Made by a program: the position numbers and the translations under genes. A DNA stretch of 35,211 nt from a virus (taxonomy: Duplodnaviria; Caudoviricetes): IMG/VR virus record IMGVR_UViG_3300037310_000508, positions 1 to 35,211 of that record. The stretch is one strand, 5' to 3'. Numbering within the stretch: position 1 is the stretch's first letter; every line of letters begins with the position of its first letter. This document shows, one piece after another, positions 18,603-24,048 of this stretch. The notes under the pieces are model-generated. The model was given only the letters and a program-made list of their open reading frames with translations. It had not been told where the DNA came from and ran no database searches.

Positions 18603-19160
18603 TTAAAAGATAAAAATTCCGTTGGGGGCACTGCGTCCCAGCAACTCGGTTTTGGCCGTCGCGTCGAGGCCACTTAATTTACTCTCCTTGAGCGGGCCGC
18701 CGATGATGAGCGGAATGCCCGCCTCCGCCGCCCCGTCCACGCCTTCGTCAGCGATGCCCTGCGCGACTTGCGAACCGTCGCTGCCCAAAACGAACGCGCC
18801 CGATGCTACCGCCACCGCCGCATTCGCAGTCAAAGTGAGGATGTTGGTGACGAGATTGACTCCTCCGGCGGCAACCGTGCCGATATTGGCCCCAGCATTG
18901 TTGGTGATAACGTCGCCAGGCTTAAACAACGAAGCGTCAGCCACCTGGCCTGTTGCCGAGTTAGTGGCAAAGCCCGCGCCCGCCGCCGTCGTTCGCGTGC
19001 GCCGACGACCCAGCCCTGAAGAGGTAATGACCCCGATAACTCCGCCACGCGGCGCGGCCAGACCAGCAGCCATCGTGAGGCCAGTGATGACCAACTCATC
19101 AGCGCGGGTCGCCGCTAGCGATTCGAGAGCAGGAAAGGTTTCAACGGTACTGGTTCCCAT
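18603..19160 (-). CDS. Head decoration protein
   Basis: DGSQVAQGIAD...I.GG......L.GLD...K..L motif; between protease and capsid. Confidence 0.75.
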   Translation of the reverse strand: MGTSTVETFPALESLAATRADELVITGLTMAAGLAAPRGGVIGVITSSGLGRRRTRTTAAGAGFATNSATGQVADASLFKPGDVITNNAGANIGTVAAGGVNLVTNILTLTANAAVAVASGAFVLGSDGSQVAQGIADEGVDGAAEAGIPLIIGGPLKESKLSGLDATAKTELLGRSAPNGIFIF

Positions 19161-19765
19161 TATTTTTTCTCGCCTCCGTTTTCTATTTTCAAGCCCATAC
19201 CAGCGCGTAACACTTCAACTTCCTTCGGATTGGGCTGGGATAAATCCATATCTCCCACAGCCATATCGCCGAATTGTTCGCCGAACTGGATGTAGGCGGG
19301 CATAGCGCCAAAGAAATTCTTCGCCCAGTCAAGGCGCGAGAATTTGTGTTCAGTGCGTTTGCCGCCTTCGCCTTCAGAGAAACAGACCACCGCCAATTCC
19401 TTGTCGGCGGCGTCGGCGACGGCGAGGGATTCGAGGAACTCCACCAGGCCGACGCGCTTCATCCAGGGCGGGCATTTGTCCGCGCCCAGCGATTCGACAA
19501 ATGACACGATTTCGGCGTGTTTGCTGTTAGTCGCCTGAGACTGAACTTGTTGCCGAAGCTCGAGGATTTCAGCGTCGGCTTTCTTCTGCGCTTCCGCAAA
19601 TTCCGCCCGCAACTTTTCCTCAGTCTTAGCGGCAGTTTCCGCCGCAATACGTTCAGCGTCGGCTGCGCTGAAACTAGCCGTTGGGGGCGCGGCAGGATTG
19701 CCGCCACCAAGCAATGACCTGAACCACTCGCCAGCGGTCATTTTTTCTTCTGGTTTGTCTGCCAT
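19160..19765 (-). CDS. Nested in-frame scaffolding protein (Mu gpZ-like)
   Basis: In-frame ATG (MADKPEEK) preceded by GAGGA SD, right after the protease domain. Confidence 0.6.
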   Translation of the reverse strand: MADKPEEKMTAGEWFRSLLGGGNPAAPPTASFSAADAERIAAETAAKTEEKLRAEFAEAQKKADAEILELRQQVQSQATNSKHAEIVSFVESLGADKCPPWMKRVGLVEFLESLAVADAADKELAVVCFSEGEGGKRTEHKFSRLDWAKNFFGAMPAYIQFGEQFGDMAVGDMDLSQPNPKEVEVLRAGMGLKIENGGEKK

Positions 19766-20200
19766 AGGTTCCTCACTGAAAGAGATTTCGACGGTAACTG
19801 CGTCGCCGCCTGTAAACTGAATGTCGCGCAAGCCTTTAACCGCCGGCGGTTGCGCCCCTAAAAATCCGACATGGCGCAAACGCGGCCCGTCCTTCAAATA
19901 AAAACTGGCCGAGCGGTTTTTGAATCGCCGCGCCGCGACCATCTTCTCGAATTCGTCGTCGGTGTCGCCAAACTGCGCCCATAAACTGCCGTCCGAAAAT
20001 TTCAAGGCTGTGGCCCACCCATACGCCGGCGCGTTTTCTTTGGGGTGGCCTATCACTGCCGGGGCTTCGTTCGGTTGAAAGGATTTAACGACCTGCTCAA
20101 AGAAGGAAGCGTCCAGATTGCGGTCAATGCCCGCGCTATCCGTGACCTGTCCCGTCCGGCAAATCTCAATCCATTGCCCGTTGAAGCCTTGTTTCGCCAT
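19160..20200 (-). CDS. Prohead protease / scaffold (Mu gpI-like)
   Basis: WIEI.RTG, APAVIGHP...PAYGW, SASFY, LRHVGFLGAQPPAVKGL motifs. Confidence 0.9.
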   Translation of the reverse strand: MAKQGFNGQWIEICRTGQVTDSAGIDRNLDASFFEQVVKSFQPNEAPAVIGHPKENAPAYGWATALKFSDGSLWAQFGDTDDEFEKMVAARRFKNRSASFYLKDGPRLRHVGFLGAQPPAVKGLRDIQFTGGDAVTVEISFSEEPMADKPEEKMTAGEWFRSLLGGGNPAAPPTASFSAADAERIAAETAAKTEEKLRAEFAEAQKKADAEILELRQQVQSQATNSKHAEIVSFVESLGADKCPPWMKRVGLVEFLESLAVADAADKELAVVCFSEGEGGKRTEHKFSRLDWAKNFFGAMPAYIQFGEQFGDMAVGDMDLSQPNPKEVEVLRAGMGLKIENGGEKK

Positions 20201-20930: not shown

Positions 20931-21152
20931 TTATGCGGCTTTGGCGACCTCGAACCGTTCAAACTGGACGCCCTTATCGCCTGGGTACGGCGCGGTGTGA
21001 CCGTTGCGTCCCGACCAGATTTCTTCTGGGATGCCGGACGGAAACGCCTGGCATTTCTTCGCGCCAGGATTAGAAATATCAAAATAACTGCAAAAAGTAC
21101 AAACGGGACTCAACGGATTGGGGTCAACGCTTTTATGTTTGCCAAAATTCAC
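20931..21152 (-). CDS. Small Cys-rich protein downstream of MuF
   Basis: CTFC...C.AFPSGIPEEIWSG...H..PYPGD.G..FE; ATGA-coupled to MuF. Confidence 0.7.
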   Translation of the reverse strand: MNFGKHKSVDPNPLSPVCTFCSYFDISNPGAKKCQAFPSGIPEEIWSGRNGHTAPYPGDKGVQFERFEVAKAA

Positions 21153-22567
21153 TTTTCGCTCCGTTTATAGTTCAACCCAAACTCTTTGGCTACTCTTTGC
21201 CAGGCTAGATAATGCGCTTCGAGGTTGGCTACCGCCAACGACAATTTACCCTCTCGCACCTGTAAAATCAACTCTACCAAAACTCTATCATAAGTTTGGC
21301 GGAACGCGGCGACAATCTTTTCGCCCAATTCTTTGTTCCATCCACCCGCCGGCGGGCGCATCGAATGACGATAACCAAACGAGACGGCGCGGAGTTCAGC
21401 GAGTTCGAGCGCGGACGCCGTTGCGACATCTTCAGCCGAGAACGTGCCGCCCTTCCAACGCGGGTCAGTTTCCGGCACGCCCGGAAACGTCGGATGATTG
21501 TGCGTCAGCGTGCCGCCCTTTGCCAGAGCCTCTTCCAAGCGCGTCAGGTCAAACTCAACCTGGTCTGGTTCGCCTTCTCTCTGCCAGAAGCGTTGCCCGT
21601 CGCGGTCAAAAATCGCTACCGTCTCGCGGGGGTTAAAGCGGATTTTGTCTTCCAGTTCCAACGCGGCCTTGGGAGTCTTAGCCGAGCGTTGCTCAAGAGC
21701 GCGTTGGGCGGCGCGTTCAACCGCCTCGCGCAACCGGCCTTGCGCCGGCACTCCCACGAATTTACCCGCGCTCAGGTCGTGAACCTGAATTCCGTCACTG
21801 GCCTTGACCGGCAAACCGTTAGGGTCATACGCCAACTTGTAATCGCCGCCGGTTGGATTCTCGTGGTTGTAACCTTCCGGCACAGACGCCCGCGCGGTTA
21901 CGGAACAGCGACAAGCAAAAGCCCAAGGCGGATAATGCGTCTGCCAAAATTCATGGTCGGCGGGAAGTATGATGCCGTCACACGCGGCGTGCGCCGGGCG
22001 AGTGCGGTCATCCTTGACGGCGTGGTATTCCCAATACGGCAAATCGTCGGCGACTTCCTCCAGTGCGCGACGGCGGCCTACGCCATAAGCGATGCCCATG
22101 TTGGTGCGAAAGATAGCCTCTAAATGCCAGGCCCCCAGTTTACGATGCCCCGCGCCGGCCAATATGTCGCGGAAACGCTTGATAACTTTGGCCTGTGGCG
22201 TGCCGTTTGCCAACGCAGCAGCGAGTTCATCCTGAAACGCCTGAAGCACGTCCTTCCGATAAATCCCAGACACGGTAAACGCCGCCGCTTGCGCGTCATG
22301 CCGCAAACCGTTGAACTCTTTTTTGGTAACAAGTTTCTTGGCTTTGAAGTATTCAACCGCCTCCGCCGGCGGCACATTGAAACGCAGCTTGATAGGCCCG
22401 GCGGTCATCTTCGGCGGCGGGTCGCCTTCGGCTAGTTCTAGTCTGCCCGTCTCGGCGCGAACGTGCGCGAGTCCGAGCAGGTACGAAGCCAGCAACGCAT
22501 CGCCCAACTCAATGCCAAGTTGAGTCCAATCATCATCCAAATTGTCAAAGAGCGAGTCGGGAAGCAC
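21149..22567 (-). CDS. MuF minor head protein with C-terminal JAB/MPN-like extension (start uncertain; frame open from about 22700)
   Basis: AFTVSG, L..IFRTN...AY..GR, YWEYHAVKDDRTRPAH, YPPWAFACRCSV motifs; C-terminal E...THNHP...FSAED. Confidence 0.88.
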   Translation of the reverse strand: MLPDSLFDNLDDDWTQLGIELGDALLASYLLGLAHVRAETGRLELAEGDPPPKMTAGPIKLRFNVPPAEAVEYFKAKKLVTKKEFNGLRHDAQAAAFTVSGIYRKDVLQAFQDELAAALANGTPQAKVIKRFRDILAGAGHRKLGAWHLEAIFRTNMGIAYGVGRRRALEEVADDLPYWEYHAVKDDRTRPAHAACDGIILPADHEFWQTHYPPWAFACRCSVTARASVPEGYNHENPTGGDYKLAYDPNGLPVKASDGIQVHDLSAGKFVGVPAQGRLREAVERAAQRALEQRSAKTPKAALELEDKIRFNPRETVAIFDRDGQRFWQREGEPDQVEFDLTRLEEALAKGGTLTHNHPTFPGVPETDPRWKGGTFSAEDVATASALELAELRAVSFGYRHSMRPPAGGWNKELGEKIVAAFRQTYDRVLVELILQVREGKLSLAVANLEAHYLAWQRVAKEFGLNYKRSEK

Positions 22568-22605
22568 CAGCTTGCCGGAGGTCTCTAATTCTTCAATAAC
22601 CGCGC

Positions 22606-24048
22606 CTAATATTCCGTCGTAGATGGGCGCAACCGCTGAAAGCGCGCCGTCTTCAAGTCCGACGGTTTCCGCAATTTTGAAGTTTTTTTTTCCGCGAAGT
22701 CAGCAGAATCCTCGTTGTCATCCAACCCGCCGCCCGTCGGCGCTGATTGCGCTTTGACCAATGTATCTCCCTCGTTTTCAGGCTTGGGGGCCTGGAAAGC
22801 GTTATAAATCCAGTTTTTCGAGAGAGGGAAATTCATGTCCCATAATTTGTTTATCCACTCTGCCAAAACGGTTTGGTCGGCAGCCGGTTCGCATTGAATA
22901 GTCCAGACCGGCGGTTTGCGAACCGTCGGGCCGTAGTTGAGATATGTCAAGGGGAAAATAATTTGCGTATTGACGGCCAGCATCAAGGATTTGGCGTCTG
23001 CTTCCACCTTTTCTTGGCGGACTGCGTTGTGAACATCGCCGAGCGCGCGCGAGCCTCCTCCTTCACTACCGCGACTGGTCAATGTTTGGCCTAAGACAGC
23101 TCGGGCAATTTCGTTATTGCAGAAATCATCAACCATCTCCTTGTGGGAACTGCCAATGGCGCGAACGTGTTCCATCACTTCCATGAGAAACTTCTTGGGA
23201 ATGGCGACGGCGGATTCTTCCGCAACAGCTTGTGCGCTTTCCAGGGCTTTGTCTTGCTCGCCTTCTCCGCTGCCATCGTTGTAGCGGCTGACAATCGTTC
23301 CAGTCCCTTTTTCGAGATACCTCAGCCATTGACGGACGGAATTACGCTTAAACCATGAAGGCCAATAGATGCGTCGGCCTAATGGCGAACCCCAACGATT
23401 GCTGTATCGCGGACGATATGTGTGAACAAAAAATTTGTTTTGTGGCAATTTTCCATCCGCGCCGGCATCGCCCAGCGCCACTCCCTGTCGGAGCCGTAAA
23501 GGGCCTGTCTGCGGATAGATATAAGAAGCCAATGTGTATGCGGCCAATCCTTCAGAGCCAAAACCAAATAACGTCGGCGGCTTAAAACGCACATCCCTGA
23601 TGGCAATCCGGTCAGGCGAATCCTGCCAAAGAATTTCACCGATGCTCACACCGCGCCCAACCGCGTCAAGTGCCTCATACAAAAAATTCTCGAAGCCAAA
23701 ATACCCGTCTCCTGCTTCAGCGGCGTCAAAATACTCGGTCAGAGTTTCATCAGCCCATTCCGCAAGTCTTTTATCTTGGGCTTTGTCGCCCGTCGCTAAG
23801 ACCACACGCGGTTTAGACAACACCCCATCACGGCGCGTGTCCAAACAGGACGAGACCATACTGTCTTTCTCAAAGACATCATCGAAAATAGCCTGAGCAA
23901 CGTAAGGCGAAGTCAGCAGCTGCTCCCAACACCATGAAGGGTCGTCGGGTATCATGCCAGGCCACGCCGCCGCGCCATATCCCGTCCACGAGTGAATGCC
24001 GTCGCTGGCGAGTATTTCCTTGAAGATGTCTGATTTAGGATTTGGCAT
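22606..24048 (-). CDS. Portal protein (Mu gp29 / DUF935)
   Basis: LDAVGRGVSIGEI.W, FK......W..Y.EK.G, EI..AVLGQTLTS, GSRALGDVH..VR motifs. Confidence 0.92.
   Translation of the reverse strand: MPNPKSDIFKEILASDGIHSWTGYGAAAWPGMIPDDPSWCWEQLLTSPYVAQAIFDDVFEKDSMVSSCLDTRRDGVLSKPRVVLATGDKAQDKRLAEWADETLTEYFDAAEAGDGYFGFENFLYEALDAVGRGVSIGEILWQDSPDRIAIRDVRFKPPTLFGFGSEGLAAYTLASYIYPQTGPLRLRQGVALGDAGADGKLPQNKFFVHTYRPRYSNRWGSPLGRRIYWPSWFKRNSVRQWLRYLEKGTGTIVSRYNDGSGEGEQDKALESAQAVAEESAVAIPKKFLMEVMEHVRAIGSSHKEMVDDFCNNEIARAVLGQTLTSRGSEGGGSRALGDVHNAVRQEKVEADAKSLMLAVNTQIIFPLTYLNYGPTVRKPPVWTIQCEPAADQTVLAEWINKLWDMNFPLSKNWIYNAFQAPKPENEGDTLVKAQSAPTGGGLDDNEDSADFAEKKTSKLRKPSDLKTARFQRLRPSTTEY

What the first reader, a model, noticed from the sequence alone, without database searches (positions are those of the whole stretch)
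22567..22705. A9 slippery run would fuse portal to MuF-JAB by a -1 shift
Seen: the portal reads GCG GAA AAA AAA ACT (nine A, 22691-22683) about 25 codons before its stop. The -1 frame has a TGA only three codons upstream of the run. It is then open through KNFKIAETVGLEDGALSAVAPIYDGILGAVIEELETSGKLVLPDSLF into the whole MuF ORF. This segment (..LGDALLASYLLG..) resembles the helical tail of Mu-type portals, and MuF has no convincing SD/start of its own. Downstream pairings CTTCAA/TTGAAG and CCGTC/GACGG are interleaved (possible pseudoknot). Known: A AAA AAA is a -1 slippery heptamer and A9 runs support transcriptional slippage. Inference: a 480-aa portal plus a minority fusion of about 966 aa would put a few MuF/effector copies on the portal ring.
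Basis: partly seen in the sequence, partly recalled or inferred. Interest (0 to 1): 0.82.

Follow-up and report, generated by a model that had tools for sequence, protein, structure and literature searches.

The report
Poly-A slip joins portal to MuF
This Mu-like phage's portal gene has a run of nine A's near its end, kept in dozens of related phages, where a one-base slip likely lets the same DNA make both a plain portal and a longer portal carrying the start-less MuF head protein and its JAB-like domain, a recoding that the cultured phage RcapMu would allow one to test.

Summary
Confirmed. The A9 (22691-22683, minus strand) is the window's only A/T run of 8 or more. MuF lies in the -1 frame with no start before its conserved region. 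All 27 close-clade split loci with a MuF hit keep the offset and a run. Of 38 distinct sites in two distant clades, 37 have A9-10 in three codon phases; no other run of 9 occurs in 320 kb of those loci. Both frames of the overlap are under selection. In-frame portal-MuF fusions exist, mostly keeping A10. One relative swaps the run for G_GGA_AAA plus a 12-bp hairpin. Cultured RcapMu, RcWaterboi and RR1-B share the layout. Best reading: programmed RNA-polymerase slippage (dnaX-like) gives a short portal plus a 966-aa fusion, probably cut at an F(A/S)E protease motif. No expression data exist. Ten literature searches found no description; only a RefSeq note on RcapMu guesses a frameshift. This scan found the same arrangement at least ten times on other DNA.

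The parts
22606..24048 (-). Mu-type portal gene, 480 aa (short, 0-frame product)
   Evidence: PF06074 E 8.7e-73, phrog_113; profile hits Mu gp29 9khx and JBD30 portal 8rka
22690..22698 (-). F-A-E codons (451-453), predicted maturation-protease site directly at the run
   Evidence: F[ASTG]E within 12 residues before the run in 24 of 25 loci; F[AS]E 65 per 7,330 aa in protease/scaffold ORFs against 12 per 18,140 aa in portal and MuF cores; cleavage itself is inferred
22683..22691 (-). A9 slip site
   Evidence: sequence; A9-A10 in 37 of 38 distinct related sites
22700..22702 (-). TGA closing the -1 frame upstream of the run
   Evidence: sequence
22606..22682 (-). Dual-coding overlap: 0 frame gives the portal tail ..KTARFQRLRPSTTEY*, -1 frame gives NFKIAETVGLEDGALSAVAPIYD..
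   Evidence: 0-frame R and F in 25 of 25, L 24, R 24, P 23, S 23, with synonymous change in the 0 frame; top-codon frequency 0.79 (6 columns) against 0.48 (68 columns), p 4e-4
22394..22682 (-). -1 frame linker of about 95 aa, likely homologous to the C-terminal helical tail of ordinary Mu-type portals
   Evidence: hhalign 57%, E 1.1e-4 against 55 canonical tails, control 0.05%; Rhodobacteraceae-type linker 97%; HMM hits
21899..22240 (-). MuF (Phage_Mu_F) domain
   Evidence: PF04233 E 1.1e-19; phrog_220
21149..21700 (-). C-terminal JAB/MPN-like domain (E..HxH..SxxD), candidate effector
   Evidence: motif invariant in 10 of 10 aligned; AF2 pLDDT 92; best structural match PfJAMM1 5ld9, Z 6.7, rmsd 3.5, 109 aligned; no Pfam match
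20931..21152 (-). 73-aa Cys-rich gene overlapping the MuF stop, candidate immunity or partner protein
   Evidence: a homologue follows 10 of 10 complete JAB-bearing MuF frames and was not seen after short MuFs; phrog_33375
19160..20200 (-). Head maturation protease/scaffold (Mu gpI-like), predicted to cut at F(A/S)E
   Evidence: phrog_976 E 2e-55; motif enrichment

Best explanation
The A9 run is likely a programmed slip site at which RNA polymerase would add an extra A to some transcripts, so that the gene is predicted to give both a 480-aa portal and a 966-aa portal-tail-MuF-JAB fusion from one start codon. Shown: the run, the -1 offset, the missing MuF start, conservation of both across clades, selection on both reading frames, and natural in-frame fusions. 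Inferred: (1) slippage happens in transcription rather than on the ribosome; (2) both forms co-assemble into the 12-subunit portal, so the slip rate sets how many MuF copies enter each head; (3) the gpI-like protease cuts at F(A/S)E just before the run, so all mature portals end up identical, and at a second site in the linker (FAE/FAD in many relatives, LAE here), releasing MuF-JAB inside the head for ejection with the DNA; (4) the JAB domain is an effector and the small Cys-rich gene its immunity protein.
For: All 27 close-clade split loci (portal score above 600 bits) with a MuF hit are -1 with a run. After removing 4 duplicates and adding 2 partial loci and 13 Rhodobacteraceae-type loci, 37 of 38 sites are A9-A10 and 1 is A8; no other run of 9 or more occurs in 215,298 and 104,537 bases. 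Run length is kept across three codon phases, with more A's than a heptamer needs. This is the pattern of a 9-bp hybrid slip; 9 A or T slip efficiently in vivo (PMC5009743 passages). No conserved SD or downstream structure: 0 of 25 and 2 of 13 loci with z below -2; 0 alifold pairs. The 0-frame tail motif is kept in A10 in-frame fused alleles (L009, L010, L012, L095; L096 keeps it behind a stop), where it can be reached only by losing an A, and is lost in the run-less fusion L018. Fused alleles form clades (P0012/P0013/P0122, SH 98; P0092/P0108, SH 97), so they are heritable. In an unselected Rhodobacteraceae-family sample of 30 portal loci, an A9 is seen only in 3 split and 1 fused locus; 24 ordinary loci have no run of 8 or more. 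Cultured RcapMu (A8), RcWaterboi (A9) and RR1-B (A9) share the layout. Mu's portal lacks its last 124 residues in the virion, attributed to protease I (PMC11915804 passage).
Against: No RNA, ribosome-profiling or proteomic evidence was available. Every run also contains A_AAA_AAA or A_AAA_AAG in the portal frame, so ribosomal -1 shifting fits as well. L013 (A8 with a strong SD and a -32 kcal hairpin) and L091 (no run; G_GGA_AAA plus a 12-bp hairpin) look ribosomal. RcapMu has only A8. E. coli RNAP slips better on T than on A runs (PMC6260861 abstract). The fused L022 keeps an A9 but has mostly lost the tail motif, and L096 has a stop before it. L281 has the split layout with no run and no X_XXY_YYZ heptamer in the last 135 nt. 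L056 has A8 with the linker in the +1 frame. The window's own second site is LAE, not FAE. The JAB fold match is middling (Z 6.7). The 38 sites are related and are not independent trials.
Confidence: 0.66

Rival explanations
1. The same two products are made, but mainly by programmed -1 ribosomal frameshifting on A_AAA_AAA, as for E. coli dnaX or the lambda G/GT tail chaperone.
For: The heptamer is in frame at all 38 sites. L013 has A8, SD energy -11 and a -32 kcal hairpin; L011 and L021 also fold downstream; L091 replaces the run with G_GGA_AAA and a 12-bp hairpin 3-4 nt later. RcapMu has A8.
Against: Extra A's beyond the heptamer are kept in all three phases. The window has no stimulator (z +0.49, weak SD). 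In A10 fused alleles the conserved tail motif lies in the +1 frame, out of reach of a -1 ribosomal shift.
Confidence: 0.22
2. The run is a DNA-level phase-variation switch: replication slippage flips genomes between split (A9) and fused (A10), and each genome makes one form only.
For: Five of 6 complete in-frame fusions carry A10 that equals a split A9 plus one A; L258 has A11.
Against: A split genome would then never express MuF, yet its -1 frame is intact and conserved in all 27 close split loci with a MuF hit. Fused alleles cluster in clades instead of being scattered singletons. No A10 contig variant was listed in run X1, though contigs drop rare variants.
Confidence: 0.06
3. MuF is translated on its own from a downstream start (GTG 22567 or ATG 22408) or by re-initiation, and the A run only encodes lysines.
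For: Ordinary Mu-like phages express MuF separately (Mu, RC1, ThpS-P1, POA1180). In-frame GTG and ATG codons exist. 8 of 38 loci have some start with SD energy of -5 or better.
Against: No start codon before the conserved LED..Y-D block in 25 of 25 loci; 14 of 25 have no ATG before the core; the SD-bearing starts share no position. AAA-only runs are kept in Rhodobacteraceae-type loci where AAG outnumbers AAA 419 to 126.
Confidence: 0.04
4. The window has a homopolymer assembly error and the true gene is an A10 constitutive fusion.
For: Natural A10 fusions of the same architecture exist (P0121). Raw reads were not available.
Against: An assembly by another pipeline (Logan, possibly of the same reads) has A9. 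The identical context GCG GAA AAA AAA ACT recurs in many independent assemblies, and the nearest homologue P0002 (78%) is also short.
Confidence: 0.02

Closest known systems
Thermus thermophilus dnaX (tau/gamma by transcriptional slippage on a 9-nt run); split-ORF dnaX of Chlorobi (PMC5009743 and PMC3711429, passages)
   Same: A 9-10 nt homopolymer yields a short and a long subunit of one oligomeric ring; the family has both single-ORF and two-ORF alleles, and other members use ribosomal frameshifting instead.
   Different: Phage head gene; the added part is a portal tail plus MuF plus variable effector; both frames of the overlap are under selection; slippage not measured here.
Phage tail assembly chaperone frameshift, lambda G/GT and Mu gp41 (named in PMC5009743, PMC2628397 and PMC4378225 passages; primary papers not seen)
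   Same: A frame switch near the end of a morphogenesis gene sets the ratio of a short protein to a C-terminally extended fusion.
   Different: Here the gene is the portal, a virion protein; the site is a long A run without conserved stimulator in most members, and the second ORF is MuF.
MuF polymorphic toxins (Jamet 2017 PMC5576092; Zhang 2012 PMC3482391; Iyer 2017 PMC5512222; passages)
   Same: MuF directly downstream of the portal, variable C-terminal domain (JAB-like, ADP-ribosyltransferase-like or none), small downstream partner gene; SPP1 gp7 binds the portal at 1-2 copies per capsid.
   Different: Described MuF genes are separate genes that bind the portal; frameshift and slippage do not occur in Jamet's main text. 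Here MuF has no start and would be made only as a portal fusion.
Phage Mu gp29/gp30 and RcapMu gp36/gp37
   Same: Mu-type portal with a cleaved C-terminal region (PMC11915804 passage) followed by MuF. RcapMu has the same split layout, and its RefSeq note says 'possible +1 frameshift would allow readthrough'.
   Different: Mu has the tail in the portal frame, a separate MuF start and no A run. The RcapMu note gives no mechanism or MuF fusion, and the offset I measure is -1.

Membership tests
Programmed transcriptional slippage (dnaX/mxiE type) | Homopolymer of 9 or more A/T conserved at the frame transition regardless of codon phase | tested here: met
   37 of 38 sites A9-A10 in three phases; none elsewhere in 320 kb
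Programmed transcriptional slippage (dnaX/mxiE type) | Transcripts heterogeneous in run length | not testable with these tools
   no RNA holder listed; contigs only
Programmed transcriptional slippage (dnaX/mxiE type) | Both products selected | tested here: met
   dual-coding constraint in the overlap; intact -1 frame
Programmed -1 ribosomal frameshift (E. coli dnaX, lambda G/GT type) | X_XXY_YYZ heptamer in the zero frame | tested here: met
   A_AAA_AAA at 22690-22684; present at all 38 sites
Programmed -1 ribosomal frameshift (E. coli dnaX, lambda G/GT type) | Stimulator: 3' hairpin or pseudoknot, or 5' internal SD | tested here: not met
   window z +0.49; 0 of 25 below -2; pseudoknot whole in 1 of 25; 0 alifold pairs; present in L013 and L091 only as exceptions
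Mu-type portal (PF06074) | Profile match over the core | tested here: met
   E 8.7e-73; PDB 9khx, 8rka
Mu-type portal (PF06074) | C-terminal helical tail in the portal frame | tested here: not met
   the tail-like segment lies in the -1 frame
MuF polymorphic toxin | MuF domain downstream of portal with variable C-terminal domain and downstream small gene | tested here: met
MuF polymorphic toxin | Toxicity neutralised by the downstream gene | not testable with these tools
   needs expression tests
JAB/MPN+ (JAMM) domain | E..HxH..SxxD motif | tested here: met
   invariant in 10 of 10
JAB/MPN+ (JAMM) domain | MPN fold | tested here: inconclusive
   top rows are MPN proteins but best Z 6.7, rmsd 3.5, 109 aligned; Foldseek E 6e-3

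The most novel reading that the evidence does not exclude
Many Mu-like phages load their MuF head protein and its toxin cargo by a recoded portal polyprotein. A frame switch placed directly behind the maturation-protease site makes a set fraction of the 12 portal subunits carry MuF into the head, and cleavage then leaves all portals identical. The switch has been built convergently from RNA-polymerase slippage and ribosomal frameshifting, and flips in evolution between split and fused alleles.
Probability: 0.45. Interest if true: 0.86.

Novelty: new variant of a known kind. Interest (0 to 1): 0.72.

Why it matters
It would add the portal, a core virion protein, to the short list of phage genes under programmed recoding, and it would be a rare case of a temperate phage using host RNA-polymerase slippage. 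It offers a concrete answer to how a few MuF/effector copies get into a head whose portal has 12 subunits. It means that portal and MuF genes are mis-annotated (short portal, invented MuF start) in many prophages. The cultured phages RcapMu and RcWaterboi of Rhodobacter capsulatus make it testable at once.

Tried and rejected
Raw-read check of A9 against A10: only Logan contigs were served, and no RNA holder was listed; this says nothing on expression. X2's contig ends inside the run and does not bridge it. A conserved RNA structure as cause of the synonymous-site conservation: 0 pairs. Single-sequence searches of viral contigs gave only distant loci. An exact DNA-motif scan gave 6 loci, 5 without a portal and 1 ordinary AT-rich portal, so it was uninformative. 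Pfam and PDB sequence searches did not name the JAB-like domain; the WD40 hits are repeat artefacts. The two linker profiles (Blastocatellia and Rhodobacteraceae type) did not align with each other directly (0.3%). Distant portals with -1 overlap but no run (for example L180, L183-L190) were not examined one by one. Literature searches that found no description of portal-MuF recoding. The RcapMu genome paper is not held and may discuss the site. One of 3 supplements of PMC3711429 could not be searched, the other two had no portal or MuF term. Only the first 300,000 of 449,034 characters of PMC5009743 are held. No complex prediction was run, as no binding claim depends on it.
Full report
Setting. 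The window is a whole 35-kb virus record with Mu-like head and contractile-tail genes on the minus strand: terminase, portal (PF06074), MuF (PF04233), Com-like, gpI-like protease, capsid, gp36, gp37, sheath. The best portal homologues are labelled Pyrinomonadaceae, Blastocatellia or Acidobacteriota where named, so the host is likely of that class (inference).

Observation. The run, its coordinates, the upstream TGA, the -1 peptide and the 966-aa arithmetic all hold. The run is the only A/T homopolymer of 8 or more in the record. A Logan contig, possibly from the same reads, has A9 with no gap.

Conservation in proteins. Of the 122 closest proteins (120 of 240 hits, 2 of 4), my script called 109 split and 13 fused. 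P0122 is a misclassified partial fusion, so the count is 108 and 14. 106 of the 108 have KK in their last 60 residues, a loose test, typically as F(A/S)E-KK. The exceptions are P0031 and the broken P0085.

Conservation in DNA. I analysed 247 fetched loci plus the window. Among portals scoring above 600 bits with a MuF hit, 27 of 27 split loci are -1 with an A run, 6 are in-frame fusions, and 2 have a broken portal frame but still an A10 at the site (L040, L102). Loci without a MuF hit were mostly cut by contig ends; L171, L100 and L101 keep an A10 with MuF disrupted or absent, and L177 has neither. After dropping 4 duplicates and adding 2 partial loci, 25 distinct Blastocatellia-type sites remain. 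A second clade at about 28% identity (Rhodobacteraceae-type, including RefSeq isolates) adds 13. These 38 were selected for a run of 7 or more in a -1 overlap. Their lengths: A9 in 32, A10 in 5, A8 in 1, in three codon phases. No other run of 9 or more occurs in 215,298 and 104,537 bases. As an unselected check, a class-wide search hit 7 of 401 genomes, all 7 being -1 with A9 (6, seen before) or A11 (1, new). A Rhodobacteraceae-family search gave 30 loci from 28 of 301 genomes: 3 split with A9, 1 fused with A9, 1 split without a run (L281, unexplained), 1 cut, and 24 ordinary loci with no run of 8 or more. Three cultured phages share the layout: RcapMu (A8), RcWaterboi (A9), RR1-B (A9). Mu, RC1, ThpS-P1 and POA1180 do not.

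MuF has no start of its own. No ATG/GTG/TTG lies between the run and the conserved LED block in 25 of 25 loci; only 8 of 38 have any start with a decent SD before the core, at scattered positions. The post-run segment resembles the C-terminal tail that ordinary Mu-type portals carry in frame: 57% (E 1e-4) for this clade and 97% for the Rhodobacteraceae type against 55 tails chosen by layout, control 0.05%. So the tail has been moved behind the slip site and joined to MuF. A natural single-ORF portal-MuF-JAB protein (P0121, 963 aa) aligns to the whole -1 frame at 46% over 511 aa.

Both products are selected. In the overlap the -1 frame keeps E, Y and D invariant, while the 0 frame keeps R and F in 25 of 25 and L-R-P-S in 23-24 of 25, using synonymous variation in the 0 frame. 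Top-codon frequency at degenerate columns is 0.79 (6 columns) inside against 0.48 (68 columns) outside, p 4e-4; the sequences are related, so this is indicative. The 0-frame stop sits at the same codon in 20 of 25. RNAalifold finds no pairs, so the constraint is best read at peptide level.

Mechanism. For slippage: length of 9 or more is kept regardless of phase; no conserved stimulator; and in-frame fused alleles keep A10 (5 of 6) together with the tail motif in the frame reached by losing one A, whereas the run-less fusion L018 has lost it. Fused alleles form supported clades, so they are heritable, like the one-ORF and two-ORF forms of dnaX (PMC5009743, PMC3711429; passages). Against: an in-frame heptamer is always present; L013 (A8, strong SD, hairpin) and L091 (G_GGA_AAA, 12-bp hairpin, no run, contig ending before the MuF core) look ribosomal; L022 and L096 weaken the shadow-frame argument; RcapMu has A8; and E. 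coli RNAP prefers T runs (PMC6260861, abstract). The family seems to use both routes, which strengthens the case that the fusion is the selected outcome.

Processing (inferred). F[ASTG]E precedes the run in 24 of 25 loci, and a similar motif lies in the linker of many. F[AS]E is about 13-fold enriched in the protease/scaffold ORF (65 in 7,330 aa, 20 loci) over portal and MuF cores (12 in 18,140 aa). Mu's portal lacks its last 124 residues in the virion, attributed to protease I (PMC11915804, passage). That head proteases often cut after glutamate is recalled, not from a call. A cut at this motif would make short and fused portals identical after maturation and free MuF in the head.

Cargo. Of 25 split loci, 8 end in the JAB-like domain, 1 in an ADP-ribosyltransferase-like domain (PF03496), 15 are short and 1 is cut. 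The JAMM motif is invariant in 10 of 10 and the model's top structural rows are MPN proteins at middling Z. A Cys-rich gene follows 10 of 10 complete JAB frames. This matches MuF polymorphic toxins (PMC5576092, PMC3482391, PMC5512222; passages), but toxicity is untested and the switch does not depend on cargo.

Prior art. Ten searches and term look-ups in PMC5576092, PMC5009743, PMC3711429, PMC8601537, PMC2628397, PMC4378225, PMC3483164, PMC11445458 and bioRxiv 2025.10.02.679949 (passages only) found no portal-MuF recoding. The RcapMu RefSeq record notes a short portal with a possible frameshift and a MuF lacking a good RBS; its paper is not held, and one supplement of PMC3711429 could not be searched. 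This scan's own notes list the arrangement on at least ten other genomes. I fixed my reading before seeing them and use them only as leads.

Verdict. Real and conserved. A programmed frame switch is very likely (about 0.88 for the two recoding routes together), slippage is the likelier route here (0.66). New variant of a known kind; interest 0.72.

Noticed in passing
L091, portal 3' end: No A run; G_GGA_AAA followed by a 12-bp hairpin (-30 kcal for 60 nt) with the -1 frame open: apparent switch to classical ribosomal frameshifting.
   Followed up: partly
L281 (G461:C58): Short portal with the linker-MuF frame at -1 but no A run and no canonical heptamer in the last 135 nt; route unexplained.
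   Followed up: partly
L252 (NC_016165.1), locus position 2255: RcapMu RefSeq also marks a potential -1 frameshift in the small gene upstream of the portal.
   Followed up: no
L172:5665-7836: MuF domain interrupted by an intein-like insertion (PF14890, below cut-off) ahead of the JAB domain.
   Followed up: partly
L176:5794-7083; L010:5639-6904: Other MuF cargos behind the same slip site: an ADP-ribosyltransferase-like domain, and an unnamed domain with a different downstream gene.
   Followed up: partly
window 13509-12871 (minus), heptamer at about 13051: Tail assembly chaperone gene of 212 aa contains T_TTT_TTG in frame; whether it shifts was not examined.
   Followed up: no
window 20525-20490 (minus): Strong hairpin followed by a T run (terminator-like) after the Com-like gene at 20822-20619 and before the head-assembly genes.
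   Followed up: no
window 30134-29370 (minus): DNA polymerase beta thumb (PolX-like) domain gene in the phage early/middle region (PF14791).
   Followed up: no
L027, L028, L030, L103-L105, L113: Related acidobacterial elements whose short portal is followed directly by the protease, with no tail and no MuF.
   Followed up: no
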